In this document: one piece after another, positions 1 to 59,400 of the stretch | How the letters are laid out: each line of letters starts with the position of its first letter | Numbering within the stretch: the first letter of the stretch is position 1 | NCBI GenBank assembly: GCA_905178155.1 | Contig: CAJINV010000004.1 | Location: 2,502,228 to 2,566,227 of the forward strand | Source: Amoebophrya sp. A120 | Lineage: Eukaryota > Protista > Dinoflagellata | Length of the DNA: 64,000 nucleotides | Reading direction: 5' to 3' | Notes under the pieces: generated by a model | Databases searched by the model: none | The model's input: the letters and a program-made list of their open reading frames with translations, nothing else | Told to the model about the DNA's origin: nothing | Program-made: the position numbers and the translations under genes

Positions 1-3000
1 TGACCGCGGCGCCCGTCGTGCCCGCTGGCGCCACGTTATGGATGTGTCAGAATCGAAATCGTCAAAGTTGAAATAACTTGTAATGCATAAAATGCAACGC
101 AAAGATTGCCTCTATTGCAGAGGACGCAACGGATGCAGATTGCAACCCTGTCGAGGGGTAAAAATTGAGCTGCTAAAGTAGCCTGACTACAAAAGGCGTC
201 TTCCTTACCCAAGCAGCATTACAAACTGGATTTCAGTTCTACCCAAATTTGTCATGCGCCACTTGAAAACTAGGCGCCAACTGGTATCCGTTTTACGCAT
301 CACAAATTATTTCAACTCTGACGATTTCGGTCCTGACACTTCCATACACGTTCACTGTGGCGTCAAGCGTCGGGTAGGGAAACAATCCCTGCATGGCCAT
401 CTTCACCAGGGCGTCGATGTTCTGGGCGCCCGGTGGAGTGGTGAGGCTGTTGGTGTTGATGGAGGTCACGGCTTGCTTGGTCGTGCACAGCAGGTCCTCG
501 TGAATCATTTCGGCGTAGTAGCACGACTGGCACTATCAAATGCAAAAATGTCTGGGTCTGGAAGAATGCAACTTGTCATGCTAAATCTGAAGCATGCAAA
601 AATCTGTGTTGCATGCTTAGCACAAGTCGTCCACTTTTGACCAAGTCGGGAGGGAGTTTCTCATGCAGGATAGGCATGAGAAAGATGGCACGCAATCTGT
701 CATGCTAGGTCCTGCATTCCAGATCCAGACCTCATGGGTCATGGAAAAGCTTCATGACAAATCGCGCACCCTTCCAGACCCAGACATTTTTGCACTTGAT
801 AGGTACGTGGGAAGGGCTTGCGCTTCGCAGGACGTGACGCAGTCTATCAGCGCCGCGCTGGCCAGACTCAGGCACGCGGTGGACGACAAGCAATTCTGAG
901 CGGCCCAGGTGGGGTTCATGGAGGCGGCCCCGCAGGTTCCCTGGAAGTTTTTCCAGGCGGCTTCGCAGGCGCCGCCTTGCGTCGTCGCCAGGAAGGCGGC
1001 CGGCGCCGTGGGCGGGGAGTAGGTGTCGGGCCAGGTCTATCAAAAGGAAAAATCACCCCTCGTCCCCATTATATCAAAAGAAAGTTTCTGACGCTGGACT
1101 TGATGTGTACACAGATCAGGTCTGTCTTGCAGTAGAGGACTGCAACAGGTAGCCCATATTACCAAGCCTAAGTAGAGCAGGGCTTTGACGTAGGCGGGTA
1201 GCATGGCAGATTTGTACTCTGTAGGCCCCATAGCTGCATCACAAACCGCCTGCATAATGCGGCGGAGTCGCTGGATTGGCCTTCTCGCAATACAGAGACG
1301 ATTTGTGTGGTGCACGAATCAGCATCACAAATTTTCAGAAGTATTTCTTTTTGGTATAATGGGGAGGGGGGATTTTTTCTCACGATAAGGTCTTCAGGCA
1401 CTGCAGGTCCGTCTGGGCCTTGGTCACCTCGGCCAACGCGATGGAGCTGAACGTATGAGAGTGCACAACTCCCCCTCTCCTTCATTTGAATGGCATAAAC
1501 GGCAACACAAGTGCTGGCATAAATGCAGCTTTTGCAACATGACAAACTCGCGACCGAGTTGAGTGCTGTTTCGGCTTCCGAAATCTGTCATGCAAGATGT
1601 GCCAAAGAGAAAAGGGCGGACTTGGTATTTTACATGACAAATCAGGGGGAGGGGGAGTTGTGCATTGTCATAGAACGACACGCCGTGCGAGAATTCTTGG
1701 CAAACGTGGTAGATCTGGTACATCTATGAAATGCAAAAATGTCTGGGTCTGGAAAAATGCAGAGGTTTGTGATGCAGCTTTGGCATGACCGAGAAGGTCT
1801 ACCATGCACGCCGTAGTATGACAGGTTTTGAGAAGGTCTCCGAATGCGTCATCCGCATGACAAAGCCCTTTTTTCGGTGGCCGGACATGTGCACCTTTTG
1901 GCTTACATGCATGACAGATTTTTGTGTGATGTGACATGCGCATCATAAGTTGCATCTTTCCAGACCCAGACATTTTTACATTTGATATCATCGCCATCGC
2001 GCAGTAATTCGAGTCGTTGTGCAGGTAGCACGTGCCGGTGGACCCCTTCTGGGCAGCCCACGCCGTCGAAGCCGCCTGGTAGCCGCCGCTAGTCGCTTGG
2101 CACACCTCGTTGAACGATATGCATTGCAAAAATATCGCACGTAGTATATTATTCAATTAAATTGCATTACAAAACATGATCTCAAGAGCGGAATTGCAAT
2201 TTGTTGTAGTGCTAAATCAGGATAGAAAAATTATAGATTTGATGTCATGCGCGACTGCGATTAGCATTAGTACGAGACTACGAGTGCGATACTTTTACAC
2301 AGCATAAACTTGTTCGCGAAGCAACTGCACTTCTGCACGCCGGTCAGCGAGTCGCAACTGACGCCGGAGGTCATGCCAGCAGACTGGTAGGCCGCGGCCT
2401 GAGCGGTGGCCACGATGGACGCTGTGGAGGTCGCATTAACCTGGAGAATATCAATTCGGGTACAGCAACAATTCTACTATTTTTTATATTTCAACTAACG
2501 TTGTATTATACTTCCCGGCTTCTTACTGATATGCATCTTCTCCTTTTTATATATCAATCAGGTTTTCTTGTTATTGCGAAAACTCAAAACTATCATGATG
2601 AACGCCGCAGGAGCAGGTTATTGATGGAAGCTGCACAGGGCGCCGCAGTCGACAAAGGCAATACTGAGTGATTACTTCTGTACAACTTTTGCTGTCAAAA
2701 CTATTTCGAGGCGACGAGCTCAAAACTGTTGAAGTTTTGAAATTTGAGGCCGGGGAGCGAGTGAGCGGAAGACGCAGTTTTTATCGGCTGAGCAAGCGAG
2801 CTCGCGCTCCATTTCTAAGTAGTGAAGATTGTTTTACTTGTTCCACAACCACCATCACCAAAAAAATGGGCGGGCACATCCTTCCACACCGGGCAAAAAC
2901 AAAAACGAGGCGCACATCTCCTGGGCGCGCAGAACTGCGAAAAAAAATATATTTAGAAATGCAAAGACCGTAATATTTGTGGGAGATACTAGACTTAGAG

Positions 3001-12300: not shown

Positions 12301-13083
12301 GAATTTGTGATGCTGTATTTGAGTACACCAGTCGACTTGTATTGCTAGAAGGCCAAGAGACGAAGCTGCGGCCTAAATTGCAGGTAATCTGTCATGCTGT
12401 TTCCCACTTCCAGTTGCCTCCTGTCATCCTGGAGCTGCAAGGCTTTCCCACGCTAGACAGCACTACAGTCTGCATCTTTTGCCTTCTAGCATCACAAAGC
12501 TGATTTGTGGCCACAAATCTGCATCACAGACTTCCGCTTTGATATGGGGAGGGGGGATTTTTCCTTTTGATACCACACACAGCAGGGTCGCAACCGCAAA
12601 TGCGGCAACCATCAGACACTGAGCCACAACGAAGCGTCCGATGTGCCCGCAAGAGGTGTAGGCGTCCTTCTCAGCCTCGGTGTTTCCAGGCAAATCTGCC
12701 AAATCGTCGTAGGAATCGAAAGCAGGCATGGCGAACCCCGCACTGATGCTCACCGCGTCACCGGCTACGCTGACGAACTTGCCGGCAAGGTTCGCATTCG
12801 CGTCGAAAACCCCCTTGGGAATGACGGCAAAAATGAGGAGCTCCTCCATGATATAGCCCGTGACGTAGACAATCAACGCGAACAGGGCGGCACTATGAAC
12901 TGCAAAAGTATCGTACTCGTATTAATGCATGACAAATTTCCTCAGCATGAGAAAGAAAATTTGTAATGCAGATTCACCTTGAGAAAAAAATTTGTAATGC
13001 AGGACTGCAATACGAGTACGATACTTTTGCACAGGATAGGCACCACCGCCACACCCGGCGCCGATCCAGGACAGGATCGTCAT
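9381..13083 (-). CDS. Four-TM membrane protein, amastin/claudin-like topology (8 exons)
   Basis: Removing 6 introners and the GT-AG intron 9492-10731 gives MTILSWIGAGCGGGAALFALIVYV, a long loop, SCGHIGRFVVAQCLMVAAFAVATLLCVV, GALLFLFAVVTFFLFPFSC, WYMAGGFYIYVFQSFLVAGAAGLV and an Ala/acidic tail ending DNVV*. Family assignment is by eye. Confidence 0.75.
9570..10578. repeat. 55-bp direct repeats (9570-9624, 10524-10578) enclosing a hairpin (10080-10230)
   Basis: GCCGCTCTTCGATGATGCATC...CAAGCACAAGTT twice with 3 mismatches; inner ~55-bp inverted repeat rich in GCGAATTT. Confidence 0.8.
10842..11156. mobile_element. Introner family D with internal duplication
   Basis: D TIRs; TSD GCCAC. Confidence 0.9.
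11215..11497. mobile_element. Introner family F
   Basis: TATCGTGAGTAAAAATGTCCCCA...TGGGGACGTTTTTACACAGGATA; TSD CCGCC. Confidence 0.9.
11583..11856. mobile_element. Introner family E
   Basis: E TIRs; TSD irregular (CCGT repeat offset by 3 nt); frame restorable. Confidence 0.8.
11902..12132. mobile_element. Introner family D
   Basis: TSD CGCAT/CGCAG. Confidence 0.9.
12252..12572. mobile_element. Introner family C
   Basis: TSD CCACA. Confidence 0.9.
12894..13038. mobile_element. Introner family B
   Basis: TSD GGCAC. Confidence 0.9.
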
Positions 13084-14553: not shown

Positions 14554-17500
14554 TTATCCTCGAGCGTCCTTCCCCTCTTCCCCGGCTTTAGTTTTGCTCT
14601 TCCCTGCAGCTTATCAAATGTAAAAATGTCTGGGTCTGGAAGATTCTGAGACTTGTCATGCATGTTTTGCCTGGGCCATGATGTCTGTGATGCATGCCCT
14701 AGCATCACAGATTCTGCGCAGGCTTCGCGATGCCTATTCCGCATGACAAATGCCCCCTCCGCTTATCAAAAATTACACTCCCTTTGCTGCTCATGCAATA
14801 CAGATTTTTTTGAAATCCAAATTTAGCATGACAAGTTGCATTCTTCCAGACCCAGACATTTTTACATTTGATACAGCTTGTTGCTGCTCCAGATTTTTCT
14901 GCTCGCGCTGCTCTAGGATCTCTTGTTCCTTCGCAAATTTCAGAAACACTTGCTCCATGGTGGGCTCGCCGAGGGCATAGTCTTCAATGATCTGTAGCGG
15001 GTCCTCAATACACCACCGGAATAAGCTATGAGAGTGCACAACTGCACCTCCCCCTCACTTGTAAGTATAGCATGAACGGCAATACAAGCATCAGCAAGAA
15101 TGCCGGTTTTGCATGACAAGTTTGCACTGGAGTGTAGTGCTATTTGGGCTGCCCGAACTTGTCATGCATAATAGTGACAAGAGGGAGAGCGTGGATTTGG
15201 TATTCTGCATGAGAAATGTTGAGAACGAGGGGGAGTAGTTGTGCACTCTCATATAAGCTCGCGAGCTTAACCTTGTTCTTGTCCCTCCGGCTGCTGCCAT
15301 ATGAGAGTGCACAACTCCCCCTCCCCCTCATTTGTCATGCAAAATACCAAATCCAAAGAAACTGTGCTCCTACTTGGCACTGTTTGCATGACAAGCTCCG
15401 GAAGCCCAAACAGCACTACACTCCAGTGCAAATTTGTCATGCAAACCGGCATTCTTGCTGACCCTTGTATTGCCGTTCATGCTATACAAATGAGGGGGAG
15501 GGGGAGTTGTGCACTGTCATATTCCACGGGTCGTGGTGCCCGAGCCCGAGGAGGAGGGGCCTCCACGCGGAGGTATTACAACTTGTTCGGACTCAAGGAA
15601 TTCATCCTGGTGGGGCGCTGCACTAGTGCCGCCTTTTTGCTCCTCACTACTTCCCGAGCGACCTCCCGCTCCACTTGGAAGAGGACTTCTTTTACTTCCG
15701 CCCACAGAGGACAGAGATCCACTTTCCGGCGCGGCGAGAAAAGTACTTGACCGCTGCTCGCGGTCGCGTACGGTGTTATAATTTCTGCCACTCTCAACAG
15801 CTACATCACCGGTCGTGCCACTAGTAGTAGTTGTACTTCTTTCCGGCAGGCCGGCGGGGACTCCCGCAACAATAGTGGACCCTCCAATGGCCATGCTCGC
15901 AGAGGTTATCCTACTGTAGTCCTCGCGCAGTAGAGAGGCCTCGGAATTGTCCCGATCGTTCGGTTTGGAGAATCCCAGCACAAGCCGCATCTTGTGGACG
16001 CCAAACGGGATGGCTTCGAGGACCTGCAGGTCCTGTATTCCCCGAAAATTTATTTCAACCATGATCCCATGCATTGCCATCCACTTTTTGCATGACGAAA
16101 ACAGAACCTGCTACATGTTTGGCATGACCAATTGGATCTGGATGGCAAAAAATTTTCAGGGAGTATCTTCGTCGTTCGGGATCACTTGCGCTGTGATCAG
16201 GCTCTGGATGATCTTTTGCTGCACATTCTCCATCGTCACGTCCTCTCGTGTAGTTTCGCCATGTCCTACTTGTTGACCAGAAGATCGTACAACTTGCTCC
16301 CGCCCTGTGGTCCGTGTGCCTGCGCTCGCTTGCTCGAGGAATGGTGGTGTTACGCCTTCTTCTTCTATGCGGTCACCCGTGATCTGGAGCCTAGATAGCA
16401 GGGACCGACCTGTTGACGATCTTCGGCCTATGAACGTCTCGTCTTTTTGTTCCTCGTCCTGATTTATATTTATTTCGTGTTTTTCGATATCTTTCAAGAT
16501 GCTGCTCTGCATCATTTGATGATGCGCCACTGTTTTGTTATTGTTCTTCACGGAAGTAGACGTTGTTACAGATTCAGCAGAAGCGGCCATGTCATCGTTC
16601 GCCGGTGCGGATCGTCGTCGTCTCTGTGCAGACCCACCTACTTCGTCTACGGCCACTGGCACATCACCTGGCGTTCTGTTAAAAGCCGCAGGCGGTCGCG
16701 GGGTGGTTGTGCTCTCGCCGATATGTTCATGTTGAACCGTCCGGCCGACGTTGCCTGGCTCGTTGGTATGGAAAGAAAAAAGTTCGGCGCAATAACTTCT
16801 CATCTCTATCTATTTTGCATAGCTTTGCATGAGAAATTTTCCAGAGTTTTCTTGCATTGCACGAACACATATTAAGGCACTCGCCCCGTATAAATTGACT
16901 TCCGTCAGGCATTTTTACGCGTGGCTGACAATTTTTTAGAGACCGGCACGCTCTGAGACCTAAAACGCGAAACACGACGGCAGCACGAAGGACGCTTGTG
17001 ATTTTCCGGGAAATTAAATACCGGGAATCACGTATATCGCCCGTGAAACAGATTGCCCGCTCCCCGGGGGATCCGCCCTCACCCGGGGGATCCGCCCTCA
17101 CCCGGGGGATCCACCCTCATCCCGGGGACCCGCCTTCGCCCCGGGGATCCGCCTTCGCCCGGGGGATCCTCCCTCGCCCGGGGGATCCGCCCGTCCCCCG
17201 GGGGTGCCGCCCGTTCCCCGGGGATCCGCCCTCACCCGGGGGATCCACCCTCATCCCGGGGATCCGCCCTTGCCCCGGGGATCCGCCTTCGCCCGGGGGA
17301 TCCACCCTCGCCCGGGGGATCCGCCCGTCCCCCGGGGGATCCGCCCGTTCCCCGGGGGTCCGCCCTCACCCGGGGGATCCGCCCTCTTTGCGGGGATCCG
17401 CCTTCGCCCCGGGGATCCGCCTTCGCCCGGGGGATCCGCCCTCACCCCCGGGGATCCACCCGTTCCCCGGGGGGTCCGCCCGCTCTCCGGGGGGTCCGCC

Positions 17501-20500: not shown

Positions 20501-23500
20501 GTTCCCTGCTGCCTACTATGGAATGCAAATATGTGTGGGTCTGGAAGAATGCAAGTTTGTCATGCTTGGCTCACATGACTCTTAAATCTGTAATGCATGA
20601 GCAGGAAAAAAGTAAAAGGCTGTCCTCTGTCATGCATATATGCAACTTGTCATGCGGAAAGCGAAACACACAGGAGCTCCCAAACTTGTCATGCGTGGCT
20701 GCATATTGTAATGCGCCCACCATTCACAAACTAGCATCAGAAGCTTCCAGACCCAGACATTTTTGCATTTGATACCTACTTTTCACTTCGATGTCTCTGT
20801 TCAGGGACGCACGGATTTGCTGCGTCAGCGTTGGAGGCTGAAGGTGCGAAGTAGATACAGCTCCAGGTCGTCCAGGACTTGAAGTTGATATTGATCCTCT
20901 CCTGGGGGCGGGTAATATCAAAGCGAGATTTATTTTGTTTTCTTCGTTGGACGTCGCGTCTTTTGCAATTCCGAGTTCTTCTCTATCCTCGTCTTCCCGG
21001 CCTAGCAAGGAAAGAATGTGACTCCGGGTACTTCTTTCAGGGATATTTGGTCCAAGAGCCACGTCGTCCGCAACTGACCGTTTGTAATTTTCCGAGCTTC
21101 TTTTTTGCGAAGATGACGTTGACGTCTCAGCGAATTTTGTTCTAGGTGTACTAGATTGGAGGTCTCTGTGCTTTTGATGGCCACCCGCACCGCCGGCCCG
21201 CCTCAAGTCTCGCATCGAGGGCATCTGCATCGCCGACGCAGGGTAGGCGAGCAGCGTTTCCTGGTCCTTCGCGGAGAGTACCCGACCGCTGCGTACAAAC
21301 TCCGCCACGGCCCGCTCCTCGGCGGTGGGTTGCAGGTTCAGATTGAGTATGGATTGCAAAAGTACTTCTATAACCGAGCGAGTCCTTGCTCTTGCAGTAT
21401 TTCTTGTATGAGAAATTTATTGCTCAGCATTAAAACGAAATTCAATTTCAGCATCATGCAGAGAAGGTACTAGAGAAACACATCTGTCATGCCTGCGGGG
21501 AGATACCGTCTACAACAACTGTGGGGCTTTTAAAATACTTTCGCATCGAAGTGGATATTCAGTTCGAGGTGGTACCCGTTCCCGTACTGGTTTTTGATGT
21601 GCAGTGTCTCGCCCAAACACTGCAGCCGGCCCGCAACCAGGATCCCCACGCGGTCGCAGGTTGCGTCGGCTTCCATCATCGAATGGGTCGTCGTGATGAC
21701 GGTCTGTCTATCAAATGAAATAAACATGTCTGGGTCTGGGAGAATGCAAGATTTGTCATGCAGTTTTTCCTAGCTCCCTCAAATCTGGAATGCGGGCCCT
21801 AGCATCTTCACAGGTTCGGAAGTCCCTTCGTGAAGATGCGTACTCTGCATGAGAAATTAATACCCTCTCAGCATGGCCACGGCCAGAAGTGAGCAACTGT
21901 TCTTGCCAGTCAACATGCAACACAAATGTTTGTACGATCCGCAATTCGCATGACAAGTTCCGCTCTTCCAGACCCAGACGTATTTGCAGTTGATACTGTC
22001 CCCGGGGCCGGTTGATCAGTTTGTTCCACAATGAGCGCTGGGCCACTATAGCGTTCTCAAACGTTACAATCTCAACTGTTACATGAATTTGTCATGCAAA
22101 AATACCGTGAGCATCCACAAGATCAAGCTGCTTCGCATGACAAATTTGCGAAGGGCTAAACAGCACCAAAATCTGCGCAAAATTTGTATTGCAAAAGGCG
22201 CTATCTTCCTCCTTTCACTTTTCCCATTCTTGCATCACAAATTCATGTTGTAACACTTGAGAATGTAACAGTTGAGAACGCCATAGCCACTATGTCCACC
22301 CCGGCCGACATCTCGTCGAGAAACACGACGTGCGGGTCGGTGATCAGAGTGAGCGCCACGGAAAGCTTGCGCTTCATCCCCCCGGAGTACTCGCCACTTG
22401 CTCGGTCGGCATCTTCCGGAGACAGCGACACATCTCGAAGAAATCTTTCGATGCGAGCCTCCCCAAAGTCGGCGGGCGGGTTTTTACTACTTTTTGTTTG
22501 TTGGTCTTTTTTTGTGCTAGAGAAAGAGAAGTAGGACGAAGATGCTGCTCCTGTTGCACTCGTGCCTAAGTTGCTCTCCATGTTACTGGTGGTGGCATCA
22601 AATGAACCTTCATCTTCCTCTTCCGAAGAGGTGGCTGTCTCCGCGCTGTCTTCTGACGTCGATAGGTCATCTTCTTTTCCGGGCGGAGAGGCCGATGCAC
22701 CGTTATAAAACTTGACACTTTTGTCTGCGACGTTGTCTTGCTGATTCTTTTTCTTCTCGACGCTTGCCAACACCCTCTCCCGCTTTGCTGCTTTCGTGGT
22801 TTGCTCGGAGGACGCGGCGAGGCCGATTCTCTTGCTAGAAGTTGTACTAGCGAAGGCGGACGAACCTCCAGGAGGATCTCCACCTCCCGGTTGTAGTTCC
22901 TTATCCCTTCCCAGCAGCACAGTTTGATTTCCTTCTTCCCTTGCCGACGCGGCGAGCACGTCCTGCATGCGTTTCCGCGTTTTCACCCGTTTCTTATTCT
23001 TTGAGGGCTTTTTGCTCATCTCCAAGCTGAGGAACGCCTTGCGCCGCTGCTGCCGCGCTTCCTCGTCCGCCGCAGTAGGGGGATCGTACATTCCGGAGAT
23101 GCGACTGTAAAACCTCAAGTGCGTCCTCGCCGACACGCGGGGCCACAGTTTGTCGAACTGCGGCGCGATCTATGACAGCGCACAAGTGGTCCACCTCTCC
23201 CTCGTCTGTATTCTTGCAAGAACAGCAACACAAGCAACGGCAGCCATGTGGCTTCCGCGTGACAAATCTGCACAGGGAGTGCAGTACTGCTTGAGATTCC
23301 AAAATTATTTGGCATGCAGACACTCCCTACTACAGGTACGATGTGGACTTGGTATTTTGCATGACAAATGAGGGGACGAGGGGGGGTTGTGCACAACTCT
23401 CATACGATCCCGGTGAGCGTGCGCGCAAAGGTGAACGCGTCGGCGGCCGTATCCTGAGTAAAAACGTACCCACCCCAGAGTTGTCATGCAAAACAAAATG

Positions 23501-35500: not shown

Positions 35501-38500
35501 ACGGTGCGCGCGGCTCCCCTCATTGGCACTTGTCTTGAGCCCCTGGCCATTTGTCCCGATTCCCTTGCCGTGTCCTCGCTGGCAGGCCGCGCCCCTGCCC
35601 CCGCTTTGCCGCGTTGTCTCCGATTCCGCGTTCGTTGTTCATGATGTTTTCTTTTTATCTCAGCCAAAAAATACTATACCCAACTACGACCCCATTTATG
35701 TATCGAAGTAGTTCCGGTTTTCTACCTTACCAGCACGGCTCTTCTTAGTCTTTTCTACATTCACGACCTACATACTTCCTTATCCTATATTACGCCCCCA
35801 CCAGCCACTTGCTGGAAAAAAAAAGAACCGCGACACGGTTTTCCTGGATGTTTTGGAAAAAGCACAGCCGGTGGGGGGGGACCACAGGAGTCACCCCCCC
35901 GCTAGCTGCGCGGCTGTTGAAGTATCTGCTTCTACTTTTTACATGATGCTTGTCTACAATTTTAATGTTTGTCATGACCCATGATGCATGTTTGTCATGA
36001 CCCATGATGCTTGTGATGCATGACCTAGCATCGCAGACATTTAGAGGGCTTCCTGATGCACCTTCCGCATGAGAAATGCCCTGTCCGGGTAGCACAAACT
36101 GCGCCCCTCTTGCTGGTCATGCAATACAATTTTTTTTACCGTCCAAGAACAGCATGACAGGTTGCATTCTTCCAGACCCAGACATTTTTACATTTGATAC
36201 ACCAGCAGGCTCTTCAATTCTTCGCGCTTCCGCATCCACAAATGATAATCTTCGTCGCCCTGCTCGGGTTTCGACGCCTCCCAGGGCGCGATCGCTGTGG
36301 TGAGCTCGGCTATGTCGCGCTGGCGGCCGCTGGCCTCGGAATAGACAAACTCCATGTCTTTGGTCAACCCCATCTGCTCGTAGGTAGAGGAAATAATCAT
36401 GGCGAGAACCAGCTGCTTCATCAACATCTTGGTCGCCGAGTACCCTGGCAGGAACAACGACATGAGAAAGTGGAACAACGAGTGCCAGGGCTCGCTGGTC
36501 GCCGGACACATGCCGCTGACGTGCGCCGCGGGACCGATCAGGACCATGATGAAGAGGTGCCAGAAGCTGTACCGCCCGGGGAACATCATGTCGGCAAACA
36601 CGATGAGAATGGGGATCATGCAGGCGACGAAATACGGTGTCCGGCTGTAGACCTTTTCCAACGTTTCTTGGTTATCAATCACCAACGCGAGAAACGCGGC
36701 GACGAGAAAAGTACTCGACAGCGTGCAGAGCGGCGTGAAAAAAAACACCATCGCGGAGCCCTCCGCGAAGAAAAAGTAGCTATCACCCTTGACCGCCTGC
36801 GGCATGATGAACAGGAAGAAGGACTGGAGCATAAACCCGGGAAGTAGGGTTATAACCGCGAATAGGTAGTGTGACAGCCAGTAGATCGTTCTGCTCACGC
36901 CGTTATGAACCGCAAATAGGTCTGGGTTACTGGCGGCACGACGGGCCACAGACGACGCCCTGAGAACCCACGAAGATCCTGAAAAGATCACCCCCGACAC
37001 TCCAGAGGGAGGGGTCGGAAAGATTCGGAGCGTCCGCCCCTCTGTAGCTTCCAGGGACAGCCTGCCGACGAAAGGGAAGCATAGACCGCTCGTGTAACGC
37101 GCGTTACACGAAGGTATGGTAGATGTGAGAAAGGGCAGACGCCCCGCGGGCGTTGCCACAGGCGTTAGCTTGCTGGGAGTGACGAATAACCACGCCCAAC
37201 AAAGGCGAGCGAGTGGTCGAGCGGTTGTAAAAGCCCTGGCGCGACGCGGAACAATCTGGGGCCCGGCAATGGACGGAATTGCCCCCGTCCGCAGGGTCCA
37301 TCTCGCTTCCATGGGCCAGATATACCCGAGCCCGAGGGCAAGGCCAGGTCGGAAATGGTCCAGCAAAAGACGGCGCACTAGCCCCAAAGCGAGTTTTTTT
37401 TTTGATTCAAAAACGAAGCCGCTGAATTTGTTGAATCAAAGAAACAGCATGTGTTTCAAGGGTAGAGAGGCCACTTCTTGAACCCCGAACAAAGGATCCG
37501 ACCAAGGTTCAAACAAGGTTCAAAGTCGCCAATCACGGGGGTATGGCAAAAGCTTCAGAGGCCAAAAAAAAGCTACTAAAAAGTTCCGAGCAAGATCCGA
37601 TAAAGTTCCGATCAAGATCCTGTCCAGAGGACACTTTTTTGGCCACTTTTTTGCGCCGCCAAATCCGTAGATTCTAGGCGGGGGAGGGGCCAGGAAAAGC
37701 GGCGAAAAAAGTGTCCTCTGGACAGGATCTTGATCGGAACTTTTGAAAATGGAGATGGCGGCCATGAACTCTGGAAAATGGCCCCGTGCCTGGCCGAATT
37801 CCACTGGAGAATGCTCCTGAGTACAAAAATTGTGCCGCGGGGAGAAAACTCCCACCCTTGTTTGACATGTTTTCTGCAGGATTGGCCTGCCGATCCCGGC
37901 GACCCCAAGAAGCAAAACACTTGGCACTGCATCGCGCCAAAGGCCATCGCCTCTCTGCGGGCTCCCGGATGCTGGGAGGGCAGGTAGAATGCCTGCGGTC
38001 GAAACACCTCCGCGCCACCCCCTATCCAATGTCCAAGACTACCGCGAAAAAACTACAGAAGCACACCAGAAGGGGGGGCAAAAGGACACGCTGGCCGCGG
38101 CGGGCGGCGCGTTCCCTGACGGCTGGCCCGCGCCAAGTTTTGCGTGGCCGTAAAATACCGACATACCCCCGCAACAGGAAAAAAAATCGCGCTTCCCAAA
38201 CAGGGCGGCCCTCGGGGTAGGCTCGGCAGCTATGCGACACGCCCAGAAAAGGCCGCGCAAATTTGCTATACAAAGGAGGCAAAGCGAAGGCCAAAACATT
38301 GGGCCTGATTCGTAATTTCGGGGCGCCGAAGTAGCCCAGCGGCCAGGATCTTGATAGGATCTTTTTGGGATCTCAGACGAGCTGAAGTGGCCCGGCGTTC
38401 CGTGAGTAACTGGGTCTGGAAACATGAAAACTTCTGACGCGCGTTTCACACCAGACAAAAATCTGTCATGCATGGGCCGCAAAAGTTGCTCATTTGTTGT

Positions 38501-39320
38501 CTCCCAAAGGTGGCATTTGTCATGCGAATTAGGGATGGGAAAACCTGATCAAAACCTGTGATGCTGGGACTTGCATGCCAGAGCTTCTGTGTCATGCGCA
38601 AGCAGCATCACACTCTTCCAGACCCAGACATATTTGCATTCAGTATCCGTAGACCTGCTGGATCTCCATCATGCGGGACTGCTCTTCGCCGTAGATCACC
38701 ATGCCATACTGGCGGTACAGGAAGGCGAAGGGGATCGTGTAGCACAGGGAAAAGGCGAGGACGAACGATAACGGGAGAATCTGGGCGGCAAAGTTCGTTT
38801 CCATCGCTTCTCCGCCCTGGTGGTAGGCTTGGAACCCAGCGTAGTTGTTGGTTACGGGGGTCTATCAGATGCAAATATGTCTGAGTCTGGAAACTTGTGT
38901 TGCTAAGACTTCGATTCATTGCAGACTTTCTCCTTGTACGGCATAATAGCATGACAAGTTATCGCTATGCTCGGCTTATTGCGCTCGCACTCGTTCGCGT
39001 TTAGCATTACAAGCTGACTTCCAGCACGACAAAAAAATGGCCAATCGTATTCATGCATTACAGGTCTTATTGCCTTTGAAAACTTGCATTACACATTCAG
39101 ATCCACACATTTTTGCATTGCATAGGGTCCGGAGTTTATCCACGTCGTCCAGCATGAAAAAGACAAACCACCCGGACAACACCGCAATCACCTGGATTAA
39201 AGTGAGCATCACCCACTGCGGCCGCCCCACCACGTCGGCGTTCTTCTGGAGCAGGATGCGGAGGGTCAGGAGGGACTCCAGCATGTTGGCCCACGTGGGC
39301 GACTGGCTGGAACTCGTCAT
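14554..39320 (-). CDS. ABCA: ABC transporter subfamily A, full size (TMD-NBD-TMD-NBD), ~33 exons
   Basis: N-terminal LRILLQKN; GVSRTIYWLS. NBD1: GEIFALLGHNGAGKST, CPQDNPL, LSGGQKRR, ILMDEPTSGMDPQARR, FTTHYLEEAD. NBD2: GECFGLLGPNGAGKTT, YSGGMKRKLS, FLDEMSAGVD, TTHSMMEADATCDRVGI. C-terminal IEDYALGEPTMEQVFLKFA. Motifs become contiguous only after introner removal; start codon uncertain. Confidence 0.93.
14612..14873. mobile_element. Introner family A
   Basis: TSD CAGCT. Confidence 0.92.
15027..15253. mobile_element. Introner family D
   Basis: TSD TAAGC; inverted near-copy of 15300-15521. Confidence 0.92.
15300..15521. mobile_element. Introner family D
   Basis: TSD TGCCA/TTCCA. Confidence 0.92.
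16036..16165. mobile_element. Introner family J (130 bp)
   Basis: TATTCCCCGAAAATTT...AATTTTCAGGGAGTA; TSD TCCTG/TCTTC; removal deletes an in-frame TGA and joins PNDED-LQVLE. Confidence 0.75.
17053..17582. repeat. GC-rich minisatellite, 19-20 bp unit (CCCGGGGGATCCGCCCTCA)
   Basis: GGATCC-type core recurs at 17069, 17088, 17107, 17126, 17145, 17164, 17183 and onward; roughly 25 copies. Confidence 0.95.
17600..18760. repeat. 114-bp tandem satellite, ~10 copies, each with a 19-bp-stem hairpin
   Basis: Unit marker at 17640, 17754, 17872, 17986, 18098, 18212, 18326, 18440, 18554, 18668; GAGGATTCCGGAGAGGATT-TTGG-AATCCTCTCCGGAATCCTC. Confidence 0.95.
19476..19731. mobile_element. Introner family D
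   Basis: TSD CATGT. Confidence 0.87.
20517..20774. mobile_element. Introner family A
   Basis: TSD CCTAC. Confidence 0.9.
21348..21557. mobile_element. Degenerate family B introner
   Basis: TATGGATTGCAAAAGTAC...ATACTTTCGCATCGAAGTGGATA; TSD TTGAG/TTCAG; joins GYHLELN-LNLQ. Confidence 0.75.
21709..21995. mobile_element. Introner family A
   Basis: TSD CTGTC. Confidence 0.9.
22047..22285. mobile_element. Introner family E
   Basis: TATAGCGTTCTCAAACGTTACA...TGTAACAGTTGAGAACGCCATA; TSD GCCAC. Confidence 0.92.
23171..23404. mobile_element. Introner family D
   Basis: TSD CGATC. Confidence 0.9.
23450..23763. mobile_element. Introner family F
   Basis: TIR TATCCTGAGTAAAAACGT; TSD GGCCG. Confidence 0.92.
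24239..25549. mobile_element. Probable disrupted family F introner with a large insertion; left TIR not found
   Basis: F-like right end ATGTTTTCGCACACGATA followed by CGGCC; CGGCC at 24234-24238 restores frame; left boundary uncertain (24209 is an alternative). Confidence 0.5.
24845..25223. repeat. Four dispersed copies of CGAAATTTCAAAATTTTATTTTTA
   Basis: Copies near 24847, 24996, 25036 and 25199. Confidence 0.8.
25859..26007. mobile_element. Introner family B
   Basis: TSD CTTGG. Confidence 0.92.
26225..26461. mobile_element. Introner family F
   Basis: TSD CCTTC/CTTTC. Confidence 0.87.
27389..27641. mobile_element. Introner family A
   Basis: TSD GTGGG/GTAGG. Confidence 0.9.
27698..27938. 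mobile_element. Introner family E
   Basis: TSD CAAAC. Confidence 0.92.
28382..28638. mobile_element. Introner family A
   Basis: TSD CGACT/CCACT; right end mutated to AGA. Confidence 0.85.
28686..28838. mobile_element. Introner family B
   Basis: TSD CCGCG. Confidence 0.9.
29000..29149. mobile_element. Introner family B
   Basis: TIR TATCCTGTGCAAAAGTATCG; TSD GCTGT. Confidence 0.92.
29966..30217. mobile_element. Introner family H (E-related)
   Basis: TSD GCCTG; splits the D-loop GMDPQ-ARR. Confidence 0.9.
30272..30587. mobile_element. Introner family C
   Basis: TSD TGTCC; joins FGD-TPLILMDE. Confidence 0.9.
31506..31823. mobile_element. Introner family G
   Basis: TSD CCCGT; homologous to 37-346. 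Confidence 0.92.
31969..32273. mobile_element. Introner family I (G-related)
   Basis: TATGACACCCTCAG...CTGAGGCTGTCATA; TSD CCTTG. Confidence 0.9.
32337..32563. mobile_element. Introner family D
   Basis: TSD TTCGG. Confidence 0.92.
32696..33087. mobile_element. Introner family L (singleton, no octamer array)
   Basis: Perfect 26-bp TIR TATGGCGGCGGTAGCTCATTTATTTG; TSD CCTCC. Confidence 0.92.
34150..34320. mobile_element. Introner family B
   Basis: TSD CACCC/CGCCC. Confidence 0.87.
34373..34679. mobile_element. Introner family A (diverged)
   Basis: Left end AAT; TSD TCTGG/TCTGC. Confidence 0.8.
34796..35033. mobile_element. Introner family E
   Basis: Left end CAT; TSD AAGGG. Confidence 0.88.
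35086..36199. mobile_element. Family A introner carrying a ~0.8-kb poly(T)-headed insertion
   Basis: Family A TIRs; TSD CACCA; foreign sequence from ~35137 to ~35965. Confidence 0.85.
36904..38645. mobile_element. Family A introner whose left TIR is interrupted by a 1.48-kb transposon
   Basis: TSD GCCGT/TCCGT; removal joins MEIQQVYG-VSRTIYWLS. Confidence 0.85.
36927..38409. mobile_element. Non-autonomous TTA...TAA TIR element with central inverted repeat
   Basis: TTACTGGCGGCACGACGGGCCAC versus reverse complement TTACTCACGGAACGCCGGGCCAC; TSD CTGGG; central IR ~37603-37745. Confidence 0.85.
38863..39124. mobile_element. Introner family A
   Basis: TSD GGGTC. Confidence 0.88.
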
Positions 39321-40485
39321 AGTCGCGGGCAAATCGTCTAGGCACTTGGCCTAGCAATCTTGTGGCTAGTGCTGCATTTTTTCAGCACTGCCAGTGGTGC
39401 CGGGGTGGTGCTCGTTCAACTTCTGGGAAGATACGGCAGCTGGTCGTAGCGGTGCCATACTTCTGAAGAAGAGGAGCCGCGAGAGAAGCACTGCTAGTGA
39501 CAATTCGTCACCGGCTCTTACCGTGGGCTTTTTCGTTGACATGATGGTGCTACGGTTGCGGTAAGCAACTCGCGACGACCCGCATCGACATCTGTCATGT
39601 CAATTGGCACTGCGTCGTTGGATGAGTTGCGATACTCTACTTTACTATATTTATACTCTTTTAGCGGAAGAGGCAGTCATGCATGAGCTGTCTTAACTGA
39701 TTGCGAGCCGAGCCCTTTCTTTAATTTCTTTTCAATGAAAGACGAAGACCCTACCCCGACGCCCACATGAATTATGTAGGCGTCGGGTCGATAAAAAGGG
39801 AAATTTCTACTTCTGCGCTTCTCAATCTCAACATTCTGTCTCTTCCATAAAATTCTCTCAAGAATATGATAATTGTGAGGAGGATGTGTTAATCTCCAAG
39901 GAAATTTATCTACACTTTAGATGCTTCTTTTAGTAGCTACGGACGCTACATGATCAAATGGCCGGAACTGCAACAGCCAGGATTTTAGGCCGTCTACCAG
40001 TTCATCCAAATATTGATTCTGTACTTTCGCACCGACATAAGTGCACAAGGTAACGACAAGAAAACATGCTTTTGTGAACCATCACGCCAACACCGACATT
40101 GTTTTTCACCGACTGGCAGTGGTCTGTACAAGCAAGAAGAGGACGGGCGCCCATGCCAAAACCGATGAAGACCGAGATGGCAAATCACGATCAACACTGG
40201 GGTTTTCGATTTTATCGACTCGAAAATGATCGTGTTCGTGTCTCGACGAACAGTATGTAACCCTCACCGGCGGTGAGATTCCATATGAGTCGACTTATTC
40301 AGTAGTTTGTCGATAGGCTAAACAGAATTTCCGAGTGATACGCCTGAACTGACGCACGCGATCGAACGAGCCAAACCAAAGCTACTTATTTTTTCTTGTA
40401 CTTATATAGCAGGATGAACGAGACACCTGCTCAATATCTCGATTGCCTAGGTACGAGCTGAATTGGTCACCCTCTTGTTCATTTT

Positions 40486-41336: not shown

Positions 41337-42158
41337 GGCTTCGTTTAGATGTTTTCTTCGCACAAGAGCAAGATTTTGCTTTGCTGACTGGCGGCAGTTT
41401 TCTTCGTTCCACTTCTTTCCTCACTTCAAGTTCCAATGTTGAAAAAAAAAGTGATGTGATGAAGAACGAAATCTAAAATTACTGAAGGTCTCTGGTGCGT
41501 GCGACGTTTTGTCTCTGGTACAACAGCGGCCTCTTCGGTTCCTCCATTTCCCTCACGATAGCGATACTGAAAACGATTTGCACGAGCATGTGAAGCAAAT
41601 TGTGGTAGTTTTGGAAGTTGTCAACTTTGCTTTTCTTTCACTCAACTTCGATGCCCACGACAATCAACACCCATCCTGAGCCCGACGAACATGACGATGA
41701 AGTCCACATTAATATGCTACGTTTCATCTACTTCCGGAACAAAAAATATTCCACAACGGTGGACGGGACACATGCCTCATACCAGTGTCAAATCGAAGCT
41801 GATGACTCCTCGCGACTTCTTGCTTCAACTCTGCGTGCGCGCTGCTTATGATGGATCGTTCATACACTTTTTCAGTTTGCAAGCATTGCAGACAGCAAGA
41901 AGAAAGTGACACAAATGTGCGTGTTAGGGGTACTACACAAGAAGATGCTTGTTATGGTATTACTTACTTTGAAAACAAAATTCGAATTCCTGAATTCATG
42001 TGCTCTGTGTTCTAGGAAGATTTTCCAGTAATCTATTGGAAGTGCTTACTTACGGCTACGTACGATAACGATTGCGCTCATAGATGTTTCTTGCTTTGTG
42101 GAACATTTGGCACCGGAAACTAAGTACATGGATAGTAAGTACTGAGACAATTTAACGT

Positions 42159-53400: not shown

Positions 53401-56400
53401 TCCACAAGCTGTAGCCCAGCCCCTCCACCGCATTTTCGTCTGTCGGATCGATAATCTTCCGGGAGATCGCGCGGTTTTCCTGCTCCAGTAACGTTTCTGC
53501 GATGTTGGGACTAGCTCCGCCGGGGACAGCGCCGGCTTTGTTTACCGCATCCGTTGCGCTGGAAGACGAATTCGGCCGGCTGGTGAGATATGCAGTTTTG
53601 GAAGAACGAAGAAAGAAAATGTCGTGGTTGCCGAGGGATAGTACACAGATGAAAGATTTTTGCAGGGTGTTGACAGGAGGTTCCGGCGAAAGCTTTCTCT
53701 GACTGAGTGACAAACTGGACTGCAACTTGTTCTTCATACGTACTTGCAATGTCAAGAGTCTCGTGATAGGTGTGTAGTATCATGCAATCTGCTTTTCGAT
53801 ATTAGTCTGATCGTCATCGTACAGCACGCTACTTTAAACTTTACCCTTCATTTGCAAGCATACCTCACCGTTCCGCATGTTCATCAGACCCGTCCCGGGT
53901 CTGCCCTCTGCCGTAGCCTCCGGTTCTTTCCCAAACTGCCCCGTGTTACTGGTTGACAGGCCCTTCAAATTTAGGTTCTTCAACCTCGGGTGCTTCACCA
54001 GCGCGCGCAGCAACGACCTGCACCCCTCCGACCCGATCGCGTTGTCGTTGCAATTCAGATCGACCAGGTGCTTGTTGTAAAACAGCCCGGCTTCCAGAAT
54101 ACAGGCGGATTTCGCTGATAGGTGGTTCAAGGACAGGTCCAACACCTCGACCGAATTGAAATTCCGGATCCCCTCCAAAAAGTAGTTCAGCGGGTTCGGC
54201 TTCTGCCGTTGCTTTACCGCGGTGTTACTGATGTTTAACACCCGGAGGGAGTCGTGCTTTTCCAATTCCACACGGAGCGCGTTATACGCTGGCTCCTCGA
54301 AACAATTCCAGGACAGGTCGAGGTTTTTCAGCCGGATGTTTTCAAACAAGTTGTGAATCACCTTGTCCGCCTGGTCGGTCGGCAGATTTACATCGGAAAA
54401 ATTGATCGTCTGCACCGGTCTTTCGCCCAATAAATGACTCAGTTGCAGCATGGTGCTCGCGGAGATTTGCTTCAAGCCGGACAGTATGAAGTGCAAAAGT
54501 ATCGTATTCGTATAAATGCATTACAAATTTCCTCAGCATGAGCAATGAAATTTGTATCAATTTGTAATGCGGATTTACCTTGAGAAAAAGAATTGTAATG
54601 CATGATTGCAATACAAGTACGATGCTTTTGCATTTCATAGACAAGTACAAGTGCCGTAAGCCGAACATCTTCGGCAAACACACTTCCGTCAGCTGCTCCA
54701 TGCTGTAGTTTCCTAAACCGAAGCAGTTTTTCAGCGTGAACTTCTTCAGAGACCGCTTCATGTGGTCGGATTGGATAATACTGTGCAGGAAGGGCACGAA
54801 GCTGTCGTCGGTCAGTGCTGGGTTATCCGTCAAGTCAATGTGGGTCACCGGGTTTCGTTGAACCAGAACGGATATCCATTGCAAAAGTATCGCACTGGTC
54901 TAACTTGCAGCCATGCATGACAAATCTGTTTTCTTACCTGAATTCGCATCACAAATTCCAGTTTTCCTCTCGAGAGAGTTTGCCATGCGATTCATACTAG
55001 TGCGATTCGTTTTGCAATCCATAACGGACAACGCTTTCAAGTCGTTGTCCTGTAAATTGTCGTTATTCGCGACGAACTGTGTGGGGTCGTTGTTGATTAA
55101 GAACTTCTGCAGCGGGACCAAACCGGCGAGCTCACACATATGAAATGCAAAAGTGTCTGGGTCTGGAAGGTTGCAAGATTTGCGATGCAGGTGTTCCATG
55201 ACCCATGAGGTCTGGAATGCGAGACCCAGCATGACAGATTTTTTGAGGTCTCTATCATGCCTTTCCTGCATGAGAAACTCCCTCTCAACTTGGTCAAAAG
55301 CGGACAGCTTTTGGTACTCACGCAACACAGATTTTTGCATCATTCAGATTTAGCATGACAAGTTCTAACCTTCCAGACCCAGACATTTTTGCATTTGATA
55401 ACACAACTTTGCGTACGATTTCACCGCCTGCCTCTGGTCGTTTTTCGTCGCCTCCAGCATTTTTTTCAGTTCGTCCGGTGCGAGCTATCCTGTGTAAAAA
55501 CGTCCCCAACCCATAGTCAAGCTGGGAAATCTGCTAGACAAGTCCACAAGGCTTGGCTGTTGCGCATGACAGGTTTGGCCTCGTAGTGTAATCCTGTTTA
55601 GTTAGTTCAGCAGCATCACAAATCTAGCGCATCATGCTGATTGGAGCATGACAAATCCCGAAACACGACTAGAAAATGCTTCTCATGGGACTCCGCATGA
55701 GAAACATCTTCAGCATGCAGAATTGCATCCCAACTATGGGGTGAGGACGTTTTTACAAATGATACGAGCGACCGCATCTTCTTCCAATTTACCGGATCAT
55801 TTTCGAATTGCCGCTATGCATCGCAAAAGTATCGTCTTCGCAGTAATCGCAACCGTGCATGACAAATTCATTTTGTTTGAGGTAAGTTAGGATGACAACT
55901 TTCATTTCTCATCCTGAGGAAATTTGTGATGGTGCGATTTGGTTTTCTACCAGTACAATACTTTTGCACCGGATAGCCGTAGCGCATCGGGATTGTTCAG
56001 TAATTGTTCAAAATAGAAGGATTTGTACTCGGTTATCCCGCAGTTCTCCTCGTTTTTCAAGAAGTTGTTGGGCAGCATTTTGCCCGCGAAATTCGGATCG
56101 GAAGAGGAGAGCGCGCGGGAAGTTGTCCCAGACTTACCGCTTGTGCCAGACTTGCCCCCTGTGCCTTTCCCGTACGCGGGTAAACCAAATTGAAATAACG
56201 TTTTCTCCATCGGGTGGAGCGCCGCGAGTATCTCCCGCGGGTCGTCCTTTGAAATGTCGAACTTCGCTAGTTTGTCCCCATGCCACTTGTTTCGGATCTC
56301 CCGCTGCCACTTCCGGTGTTTGTATTATGGATTTCTCGAATGTTAATACACTCTCAGCTGTCACATGCTTTGTCATCCAAACTTACCATCGGCGTAGACA

Positions 56401-59400
56401 CGATCAAGCTGCTTCCCATGACAAATTCTCGAAGAGCCGAGCAGGGTCCTACTCTGTTCCAAATCTGTAATGCAGGACGCGCATCAAGGCCCCCCTCTTC
56501 ACTTTTGCCAGTCTTGCGTCACAAATCCATGGAACAGCTGAGAATGTAACAGTTGAGAACGCCAACATATGTATTTCGGGTCCTGGACCAGACGGGAAGA
56601 AGAGGAAGTCGTGGTAGTGGAAGTAGATGTGATACTGGTTGTGGAGGAGTTATGTTGGTTAATATGGTTTCGATTGGCAGATGATGTGGAATTTTTATCC
56701 GGCGCGTACTGGGGATACATGTTCAAGGCCCGCGGCATCGTGGTGCTCATCTGGTCCACCTCTCCGGGTATCAAAGAAAAAAACTGCTTTACTAGTGTAG
56801 GTCCGTCTCGTGGTACAGTGACAGCATGACAAACACAATCAGATCTGTTCTGCATCTGCATGACACAGCACCAGAAAGCCTGTAATGTTGCACAGCGAGT
56901 ACACGGAAACGCGTGTGAAATAGGATTTCATGGCTGGTGGCCAACATCCATGACAATCGTAAACTGTGTTGCATGCTTTGCATTACAGATTTACACGAGC
57001 TACACACTTTTTTCTTGCACCATACCAGCATCCCCTCCTACTTCCACCAGCGCGTCCGCCACACTCTGCCAGCTGTCGTGATTCCGATCCCCCTTTTTCC
57101 CAGCAGCTGCCAAGTACGCGTGCGTCCGCTGCATTTTGTCCAAGTGATAACTCGAGATCCCGGCGATTTTCAGCTTTTTCGCGTACTCCTTCGCCTCCTT
57201 TTTCATCAGATCCGGGCCCATCGCCAGGTTTTCCGCGCCCATCCAGGACTTCCGGCTGTCAAGCTTGAATTGCTGTTCGTTCTTTTTCTTAAAAGCGTTG
57301 AACTTGCTGCTGGTGTACTGGGACACATTACCAGTTCCGCCGGAGTTCTGACTCTTTTTACTCGCCATGGTCCCCAAAAACGTGTCCATGACTGATTGCG
57401 CGTCCTTGACGCACATGTGCTGCCCCCGGTATTTTGCCCCCGGGTCCTCGATGTCGCTGCGCTTCAGCCCCCTTATGGCCTGCTCAAACGTTACAATCTC
57501 AAACGGCACAATAGAATCTGGAATTTGTATTGCATGAAGAGCATGAGGAACGCAGAGAGAGTTGAGCTTTCCGCAATACAAATTTTGCCGGATTTCATGT
57601 GGGTTTGGGACTCCGAAACGTGTCATGCGCAATCCCATGGGAGTAGGCTAGATTTCATGCAGTTCTTGCATCACAGATTTCCAGCAGACTCTATTGCAAC
57701 AGTTGAGATTGTAACGTGTGAGCGGGTCATACCCCTCTTCGCGTTGTTCTGGTTATTCGCGAGCAGCTCTTCGACGCCGTGCAAACTGAGCGGCTTTCCG
57801 TATGCACTGCAAAAGTATCGCACTCGTAGTAATTGCAGTCATGCATTACAAATTTTTTTCTGAAGCTAAATACGCATTACAAATTTTATTTCTCATGCTG
57901 AGCAAATTTGTAATGCATTTATACGAGTACTATGAACGGACAAAATGCAAAACCGGACACGAAAAAAACCAAGAATAATCGTGATCCGCACCTTTTCGGC
58001 CGTTCGCGGCCAGTGTGTGCGAAGACGAAACGACAACGCCCGGACGGCCAACAACGAGAAGAACTGGCCGCAGGGAAGGCTTGACGCGGATGCGCAGGCG
58101 ATTCTTTTGTTGGGTTGTTGTTCGCGATCAGCCCTCTCTTCGGCCCAACACCAATACCCGAAACGAAGGCGCAAAGTCTTCACGCGAGACAGGCAACAAC
58201 CCCCGCCTGCGAGCTCTACCACCCCGCCCACCGAGCGGACTTCGCCGAGGCTTGTGGCCTGAAGTTGGGCCACAAGGAGTCACGCACAGGGGGCAACGGG
58301 ATACTAGAAAGAGCCTAGGCTTAGGCCTTCCGCCAACTTTATTTGAAGCGGGCCCTCCCATGCAAAGCGCTGGGATTGGGAGGCGGGGCGGACAGGGAGA
58401 GGCGGGGCTGTGGCCTCTGGTCTTGCATGGGCCCAGCCGCCGCTCGGCCCCTCGGAAAAATTGGCTGCGGAAAAATAGCTTAAAAGCTTGCAGCGTGCTT
58501 GGGGGGCTGCTTCCGAATTTGTTCGCATTTTTGCCCGACCGAAATTCGCGGGGAAGGGTCCCTCCCTTGGCTGCCGAAGGGGGCAAAACACCCACGAAAA
58601 AACCGTCGCTGCCCCAAGGCCATAAGCTGCGAAAAACCTTCAAACGCCTACGGTTTTAGGTGATGGGCGCTGGTTTCGCCGCGTGCAAAATTGCGAGCCA
58701 ACAACAAGAAAAGCAGCCAAAACACGAAAGGTGCCGGGGCCGCGACACTTCCGCAGGCAGTCGCGACCGGGCCAAGCGCGCGGCGTTTCGCTTCGAATTT
58801 GCAAGGCGGCGCGCAAAGTCCCTACCAAGAGTCTTGGTTTTTTCCAGGTTTTTTTACCCCCTTCTGGCCAATTCTTGGCCAAAAAGCGGCTTTTTGGCCA
58901 AGAATTGGCCAGATGGGGAAAAAAACCCGCGAAAAAACCAAGATTCTTGGATCGGCCATCTTTTGCGGCCCTGAATCGGCCTCGACGCCTTGCAGGTTTT
59001 TTGCCCGGCCTTGCGCACATTCAACGCTGGATATTTGTCGTTGGGCCCCTTCGCGACCGCCCGAAGAAACATCGCGGCCCCTGGGTTTTCCGCATTTGGC
59101 CTGTTTTTTTTCTGTTGCCGATTTGCAATTTCGCACGCGGCAAAGCGCCCACCCAACATACAAAATGGCAGGTGTGGATGAAGGCTTTCCCACACCCTTC
59201 GAAACATTGGACTGGGTGCGCAGGGGAAGGCAAGATGGAGAAGGATGGCGAACATGCTGGGGACTGGAGGGCCACCTTGCTAAAGTTGGGTGGGCTGGGC
59301 ATGGGGATGGAAAATAAAGGGGGGGGGGGGAGGCGCACGCCGGGAAGCACCCAGGCCCCTTCGCCGATCCGGTTTGCGCGGCTGATCGCCCTCCCCTGCT

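What the first reader, a model, noticed from the sequence alone, without database searches (positions are those of the whole stretch)
37..57930. Unrelated introner families share a helically phased TGT(C/G/A)ATGC octamer
Seen: families with different TIRs and interiors carry several copies of TGTVATGC or its reverse complement GCATBACA. Offset of the first copy from the left end: F +32 (23482), D +33 (15333), B +33 (29033, reversed), A +40/+42 (574, 14654), G +42 (79), I +42 (32011), E +43 (22090), H +53 (30019), C +54 (12306). These approximate 3, 4 and 5 turns of 10.5 bp; one K copy (+45) fits less well. Same-orientation copies recur at 31-32 bp (574/605, 14654/14686, 12306/12338, 12390/12422, 12489/12521). 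Inverted pairs with a 7-8 bp gap recur every 39 bp (659, 698, 737). Inference: this looks like a binding array for one dsDNA-binding protein (shared transposase or host chromatin factor) that unites the families. I do not know of a prior description.
Basis: partly seen in the sequence, partly recalled or inferred. Interest (0 to 1): 0.92.

Follow-up and report, generated by a model that had tools for sequence, protein, structure and literature searches.

The report
Helically phased motif in intron-making transposons
Small jumping elements that became this protist's introns carry several copies of one short motif, mostly spaced to fall on one side of the DNA helix; this is likely a landing pad for the still unidentified protein that moves them.

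Summary
TGTVATGC occurs 192 times against 7.5 expected, 190 of them inside short TAT...ATA elements with 5-bp target duplications that act as introns in an Amoebophrya-like genome. Same-strand copies lie whole turns apart (period about 10.4 bp), opposite-strand copies half a turn off. A fit on the window alone predicts families absent from it (p 0.002-0.017). The motif is strongly conserved among variants that spread (0.029 versus 0.153 in spacers) but only weakly after insertion (0.0136 versus 0.0186). Phase-breaking indels almost never spread. So selection acts mainly on transposition, not on splicing. Corrections: the families are not all unrelated (12 of 19 link by masked homology); B-type elements are out of phase with their ends; the 39-bp repeat is off-phase. 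No transposase was found, so the binder is inferred. Phased subterminal sites are known (Hermes, IS607); one array shared across families with dissimilar terminal repeats and filling whole elements was not found in print in my searches.

The parts
37..346 (.). G-family element; 4 strict sites, first inward site +42 at both ends
534..801 (.). A-family element; sites at +40, +71, +125, +140(-), +164
6786..7338 (.). K/A-like element with a second A element (6799-7055) nested in its terminal repeat
10842..13038 (.). six elements (D, F, E, D, C, B) in one gene; removal with one duplication copy each opens a 266-codon frame
12252..12572 (.). C-type element with a 10-bp insertion that moves the first site from +44 to +54
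14612..14873 (.). A-family type copy: sites 42+, 74+, 90-, 129-, 183-, 214-; perfect 25/25 terminal repeat, 5-bp duplication
15300..15521 (.). D-family element; first site +33
22047..22285 (.). E-family element; alternating sites 43+, 88-, 138+, 185-
23450..23763 (.). F-family element; six same-strand sites, includes off-phase 49-50 bp spacings
25560..39330 (-). part of an ABC-transporter-like host gene interrupted by 19 elements; removing each plus one duplication copy gives one 2197-codon open frame
29000..29149 (.). B-family element; terminal sites face outward and are off the end register
29966..30217 (.). H-family element; first site +53, related to E (+43)
31969..32273 (.). I-family element; aligns end to end with G
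32696..33087 (.). TAT...ATA element with 5-bp duplication, no A-run in its terminal repeat and no octamer (internal negative control); empty site in L003
38863..39124 (.). K-family element; first sites +33 and +31; empty site in L003
50304..50524 (.). J-family element
55486..55764 (.). F-family element shared with L020 (5 mismatches in 279 bp)
57801..59880 (.). B-family element split by a nested 1.9-kb element (57931-59847) that lacks the octamer

Best explanation
The motif is likely a binding site for the protein machine that moves these elements (a shared transposase or its helper), placed mostly on one face of the helix so that bound proteins would bend a 110-320 bp element and bring its two ends together. 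Shown: the elements are non-coding TAT...ATA insertions with 5-bp duplications that must be removed from host reading frames; the site is about 13 bp ((A)AAYY-TGTVATGC, variants TGT[AG]TTGC and TCTCATGC); same-strand sites lie n x 10.4 bp apart and opposite-strand sites (n+1/2) turns apart; sequence and spacing are held in lineages that spread and decay nearly neutrally after insertion. Inferred: protein binding, bending, end synapsis, cut-and-paste excision, and that one protein or one conserved DNA-binding domain serves all families.
For: Phasing: 134 site pairs in 19 family consensuses, best fit period 10.45 and offset 5.0; mean cosine 0.53 against a null of sd 0.06, maximum 0.24 in 3000 draws; 0.46 without the 30-34 bp pairs. 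Fit on strict window sites only (10.35, 5.25) predicts 6 families absent from the window: 28 pairs p 0.002 with the wide motif, 9 pairs p 0.017 strict. First inward site at 31-33 (10 ends), 40-44 (12), 52-55 (3), 60 (1), for 26 of 38 family ends; collapsed to 11 lineage values R 0.72, p 0.003-0.009 under four nulls. Selection timing: shared variants 0.029 per base in motif versus 0.153 in spacers, singletons 0.0136 versus 0.0186 (11 families); four orthologous pairs 7 of 128 versus 25 of 610 mismatches, p 0.48. Indels of 2-8 bp: 2 of 31 events seen in 3 or more copies versus 381 of 563 seen in 1-2 copies; 2 of the 4 shared events larger than 1 bp are -11 and +10, both between terminus and first site. 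Spacer AA/TT in phase and G/C steps in antiphase with the sites, p 0.001-0.02 at three masking levels. Motif rare outside elements: 11.5 versus 0.27 per kb in 61 loci. Precedent: phased subterminal sites of Hermes and IS1535.
Against: No transposase or autonomous copy: none among 107 of 142 long frames from the loci, none among long inverted-repeat elements, and Farhat et al. found none in A120. Families share descent, so pairs are not independent. Off-phase spacings of 18, 39 and 49 bp are fixed in some families; families F and K score only 0.11 and 0.14. Phasing to the terminus is weak in the six new families (R 0.25, 14 sites, against 0.56, 32 sites). The two new families outside the J lineage alone give p 0.057. 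Singleton changes are still 27% fewer in the motif (p 7e-5) and private insertions in it number 33 against 49 expected, which leaves room for some host-level constraint. Terminal repeats differ widely past base 15, which could mean several transposases. Loci were pulled with the A-family repeat, so A is over-represented.
Confidence: 0.65

Rival explanations
1. A host chromatin protein (or nucleosome with a sequence-specific partner) binds the phased sites; elements that recruit it are tolerated, silenced or better spliced, so the host keeps the array.
For: Spacer AA/TT and G/C steps show the bending pattern known from wrapped DNA. One site serves families with different terminal repeats. Singletons and private insertions are somewhat depleted in the motif. 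A host bending factor used during transposition would also fit, and is counted under the best explanation.
Against: Orthologous copies show no motif conservation (7 of 128 versus 25 of 610; only 4 pairs). The motif is nearly absent from promoters and other DNA (2 of 192 window sites; 0.27 per kb in loci). 206 private spacer insertions show no helical phase (mean cosine -0.005). Octamer-free elements such as 32696-33087 are removed from the same reading frame.
Confidence: 0.15
2. Inheritance only: one ancestral element held a repeated unit, and today's families are shuffled descendants, so phasing is a historical echo under a general length constraint.
For: 17 of 171 family pairs are homologous with motifs masked; 12 of 19 families form one component. 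23 of 69 same-strand pairs are the one 31-33 bp spacing.
Against: Motif bases are far more conserved than spacers within families. Phasing stays without the 30-34 bp pairs and in sets with one family per component (p 0.0003-0.0015). Related ends differ by about one turn (A-type 42/33, C-type 44/54-55, E/H 43/53).
Confidence: 0.1
3. The inverted copies pair in the pre-mRNA, or bind an RNA protein, to fold the intron for non-canonical splicing.
For: Opposite-strand sites do pair in many predicted folds. The elements are introns, and hairpin-aided splicing has been proposed for them (PMC7789003).
Against: The variable base does not co-vary between opposite sites (largest z +2.1 among the opposite-strand pairs printed). 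Elements occur in both orientations in minus-strand genes. A 10.4-bp period with a half-turn offset has no reason to arise in RNA stems. Family 2 has five same-strand sites and one opposite.
Confidence: 0.07

Closest known systems
Amoebophrya sp. A120 introner elements (Farhat et al. 2021, PMC7789003; section 11, passages and a term search of the one supplement seen)
   Same: Inverted repeats starting TAT, seven loose bases, then at least three A; short direct repeats; mean length about 240 nt; non-canonical introns. The window's elements match this.
   Different: In what I read the paper describes no internal motif or phasing, and it argues against general transposase-mediated mobilization because no transposase was found in A120. 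Here the duplication is fixed at 5 bp by 13 empty sites. Figures were not visible.
Amoebophrya A120 introner families of Gozashti et al. 2025 (PMC12130899; passages, 21 of 58 A120 rows of supplement 8, term search of 12 of 14 supplements)
   Same: Many families classed as TIR DNA elements of unknown superfamily, 106-340 bp; one family carries an integrase-like frame within terminal repeats.
   Different: No octamer string in the files searched; no shared internal architecture in the passages read. I could not link that family to these elements.
Hermes (hAT) subterminal repeats (PMC10368747, passages)
   Same: Short repeats inside the terminal repeat, both orientations, bound by the transposase; exact phasing to the end matters.
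   Different: 4-bp sites, one element; hAT duplications are 8 bp (recalled). Here a 13-bp site fills whole non-autonomous elements across many families with 5-bp duplications.
IS607-family (IS1535) phased motifs (PMC6188088, passages)
   Same: Four 9-bp motifs in helical phase 20-60 bp from the end nucleate a protein filament that captures the other end.
   Different: Serine recombinase, direct repeats only, no terminal repeats or target duplication.
IS3EU/GingerRoot DNA transposons (PMC10045372, passages)
   Same: TA..TA termini.
   Different: Duplications usually 6 bp; here 5 bp. No transposase here to compare.

Membership tests
Amoebophrya A120-type introner elements | Inverted repeat begins TAT, 7 loose bases, then an A-run | tested here: met
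   38 of 38 family ends start TAT; A in 27-35 of 38 at positions 11-15. TAT was also required by my search.
Amoebophrya A120-type introner elements | Repeated sequences that are introns of host genes | tested here: met
   Removal of 19 elements gives one 2197-codon frame; shown by frame, not by RNA.
Amoebophrya A120-type introner elements | Splice junctions supported by RNA reads | not tested
   No RNA runs were obtained.
Amoebophrya A120-type introner elements | Host lineage is Amoebophrya | tested here: inconclusive
   Rpb1 from the related locus L070 has its best named hits among apicomplexans and dinoflagellates at 62-65%; the 86% best hit names no organism.
MITE (non-autonomous TIR DNA transposon) | Short, terminal inverted repeats, many copies, no coding capacity | tested here: met
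   422 elements, family medians 109-322 bp.
MITE (non-autonomous TIR DNA transposon) | Target duplication proven by empty sites | tested here: met
   13 orthologous empty sites, each with one 5-bp copy.
MITE (non-autonomous TIR DNA transposon) | Autonomous partner with the same ends | tested here: inconclusive
   None in about 0.6 Mb or in four viral-contig scans; whole genome not held.
IS3EU/GingerRoot | TA..TA termini | tested here: met
IS3EU/GingerRoot | 6-bp target duplication (usual) | tested here: not met
   5 bp at 13 of 13 empty sites
IS3EU/GingerRoot | IS3-like DDE transposase | not testable with these tools
   no transposase found
hAT-type subterminal repeat array | Repeated short site in both orientations with fixed phasing | tested here: met
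hAT-type subterminal repeat array | 8-bp duplication (recalled) and BED-domain transposase | tested here: not met
   5-bp duplication; transposase unknown
Transposase subterminal binding array (any superfamily) | Direct binding by the transposase | not testable with these tools
   needs biochemistry

The most novel reading that the evidence does not exclude
One trans-acting DNA-bending protein reads a shared, helically phased code across dozens of introner families whose terminal repeats have diverged. The whole element is a pre-bent scaffold, and this code, not the terminal repeat, licenses mobility. The motif would then be bait for the unidentified mobilizer behind tens of thousands of non-canonical introns in Amoebophrya.
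Probability: 0.3. Interest if true: 0.85.

Novelty: new variant of a known kind. Interest (0 to 1): 0.68.

Why it matters
Farhat et al. report 29,850 repeated introns in 1954 families in A120, no transposase there, and leave their mobilization open. A shared site with a strict spacing rule shows that these families answer to common machinery. It gives a direct handle: a probe for pull-down, a signature for finding the autonomous element, and a sharp test (5-bp versus 10-bp shifts). It also suggests how elements as short as 110 bp could close the loop between their ends.

Tried and rejected
Whole-genome analysis was not possible (no genome held), and no RNA reads were obtained, so splice sites rest on reading frames. 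Four viral-contig scans with terminal-repeat patterns found nothing. A search for long elements with matching ends found only nested composites and octamer-free elements. Pfam scan of 107 of 142 frames of 260 aa or more found no transposase or integrase; duplicates, antisense shadows and some of the shortest were dropped. Element length shows no clear 10.5-bp period (R 0.19 at 10.5, 0.44 at 10.1, 19 families). Lengths show no multiple-of-three bias (149/121/152). No target-site consensus. RNA covariation absent. No helical phase in private insertions. An orthologous pair (27389 with L003) was left out of the four-pair count because its spacers differ by 26%; with it the totals are 12 of 176 motif and 63 of 755 spacer mismatches. 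L037 and L104 (other records) and 34 singleton elements were left out of family tests. The Fisher tests used a mis-summed total and were redone. Likeness of the motif to TALE-homeodomain, ApiAP2, RBFOX or 6mA (VATB) motifs is recalled, untested, and fits the tolerated variants poorly. Earlier scan findings: three look-ups returned nothing.
Full report
Setting. The window is eukaryotic, with genes mostly on the minus strand interrupted by 145-390 bp elements that begin TAT, end ATA and are flanked by 5-bp direct repeats. Removing 19 such elements, each with one repeat copy, from 25560-39330 turns frames of at most 451 codons into one of 2197 codons, so they are introns. Their ends match the published signature of Amoebophrya A120 introners (PMC7789003 section 11), and Rpb1 from a related locus is closest to apicomplexans and dinoflagellates among named hits. 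The lineage is inferred, not shown. No whole genome was held.

More data. One metagenome scan with the A-family terminal repeat returned 144 loci, 142 from JACKZZ01 contigs. L003 and L020 are orthologous to the window at 88-96% identity. They gave 358 further elements; with 64 from the window, 388 of 422 fall into 19 families. Thirteen orthologous empty sites each hold one 5-bp copy, which proves insertion with a 5-bp duplication.

The motif. It occurs 192 times against 7.5 expected; 410 of 422 elements hold a strict copy. The full site is about 13 bp, with AAYY upstream, and tolerates TGT[AG]TTGC and TCTCATGC. It is 43-fold denser inside elements than outside. Other inverted-repeat elements in the window lack it: 32696-33087, 36928-38409, 49430-50289 and 57931-59847.

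Phasing. The first inward site lies 31-33, 40-44 or 52-55 bp from the end at 25 of the 26 family ends that have one within 60 bp (38 ends examined); 11 lineage-level values give R 0.72, p 0.003-0.009. The period from ends alone is loosely defined (R above 0.7 from 9.5 to 11.5). Site-to-site distances are sharper. Same-strand pairs peak at 31-33 bp (23 of 69) and near other multiples; convergent pairs at 15-16 and 44-49; divergent pairs at 16-17, 34-35, 48-50 and 66. A joint fit gives period 10.45 and an offset of 5.0 for opposite strands. That is the geometry of sites on one helical face with their axis near the first TG step or half a turn from it. The signal survives removal of the 30-34 bp pairs, sets with one family per homology component, and a fit on the window tested on six absent families. 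Exceptions are real: 18, 39 and 49 bp spacings, weak coherence in F and K, weak end-phasing in the new families and in B.

Relatedness. The families are not all unrelated. G and I align end to end, as do some A and K copies; D, E, H and F share interior pieces. With motifs and tips masked, 17 of 171 pairs remain homologous and 12 families join one component; the A pair (families 0 and 2) and families 1, 14, 15, 17 and 18 stay apart. Terminal repeats share TAT, an A-run at 11-15 and a weaker C-rich then A-rich block at 24-30.

When selection acts. Motif bases match the family consensus at 94.5%, spacers at 82.5%, terminal 30 bp at 90.9% (15 families). Variants shared by several copies, which passed through transposition, are five times rarer in the motif than in spacers; single-copy variants are only a quarter rarer. 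Four orthologous pairs show no motif advantage, a small sample. Indels of 2-8 bp make up 381 of 563 private events but 2 of 31 shared ones; the shared large ones include -11 in 8 copies and +10 in 4 copies. Gap-placement ambiguity may split some shared events into private ones. Spacers carry AA/TT in phase and G/C steps out of phase with the sites, the pattern of DNA that bends easily in one direction.

Mechanism. Shown: a phased, strand-symmetric site kept by copies that spread. Inferred: it binds the transposase or a helper, which bends the short element so that the ends meet. RNA pairing is unlikely because opposite sites do not co-vary and elements lie in both orientations. A purely host function is less likely because constraint largely lapses after insertion and the motif is rare elsewhere, though a modest residual constraint remains. 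Insertions shaped as a 5-bp duplication plus one base (14 of 44 six-base insertions against 0.2 expected) look like excision footprints and would fit cut-and-paste. No transposase was found.

Known systems. It works like the phased subterminal sites of Hermes and IS1535 (passages read) but is a member of neither family. TA..TA ends recall IS3EU/GingerRoot, whose duplication is usually 6 bp. The elements themselves are the known A120-type introners. I found no description of the motif or its phasing in nine literature searches, in term searches of the supplements of two introner papers, or in passages of PMC12005148. The library lacks most subscription papers and I could not see figures.

Verdict. 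Real and more regular than first described, but an elaboration of a known principle in known elements, with the binder unidentified: new variant of a known kind, interest 0.68.

Noticed in passing
window 55139-55400 and L020:2603-2864; window 27389-27641 and L003:617-890: The same insertion site with the same duplication holds a different A-family copy in the relative: in opposite orientation at the first site, 26% diverged in spacers at the second (about 4% in four other shared elements). Suggests element replacement or parallel insertion.
   Followed up: partly
all families: The commonest private indel is +3 bp; 108 of 211 are a 2-bp duplication plus one base (24 expected). The same shape recurs at +4 (15 of 38) and +6 (14 of 44). 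Possibly excision footprints or a repair signature.
   Followed up: partly
window 36928-38409: 1.48-kb element with TTA...TAA ends and a 5-bp duplication, nested in the terminal repeat of a K-type introner (36904-38645); absent in L003; no octamer.
   Followed up: partly
window 49430-50289: 860-bp element with TTA...TAA ends, perfect 25-bp terminal repeat, 5-bp duplication, no octamer, no frame of 150 codons.
   Followed up: partly
window 57931-59847: 1.9-kb TAT...ATA element with long terminal repeats and an 8-bp duplication, nested in a B introner; no octamer; its frames were listed but not scanned against families.
   Followed up: partly
window 35136-35985 (approximate): About 850 bp inserted in an A introner, starting with a T-run and beside a duplicated stretch of about 20 bp; possibly a retroposed piece.
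   Followed up: no
terminal repeats of families E, H, G, I (for example window 22047-22090, 31969-32010): An imperfect 15-bp direct repeat inside the terminal repeat, seen by eye in the consensuses.
   Followed up: no
window 17018-17510 and 17500-18830: Two adjacent GC-rich tandem arrays with 19-bp and 114-bp units, inside the region of a minus-strand gene.
   Followed up: no
window 5123 and 5172: The only two octamers outside called elements form a convergent pair 49 bp apart; possibly the relic of an old element.
   Followed up: no
L058/L059 (about 4300-16000): Long near-perfect inverted duplication around a 1362-codon frame with no Pfam match.
   Followed up: partly
L014:2624-6079: C-5 cytosine DNA methylase domains in the related genome.
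   Followed up: no
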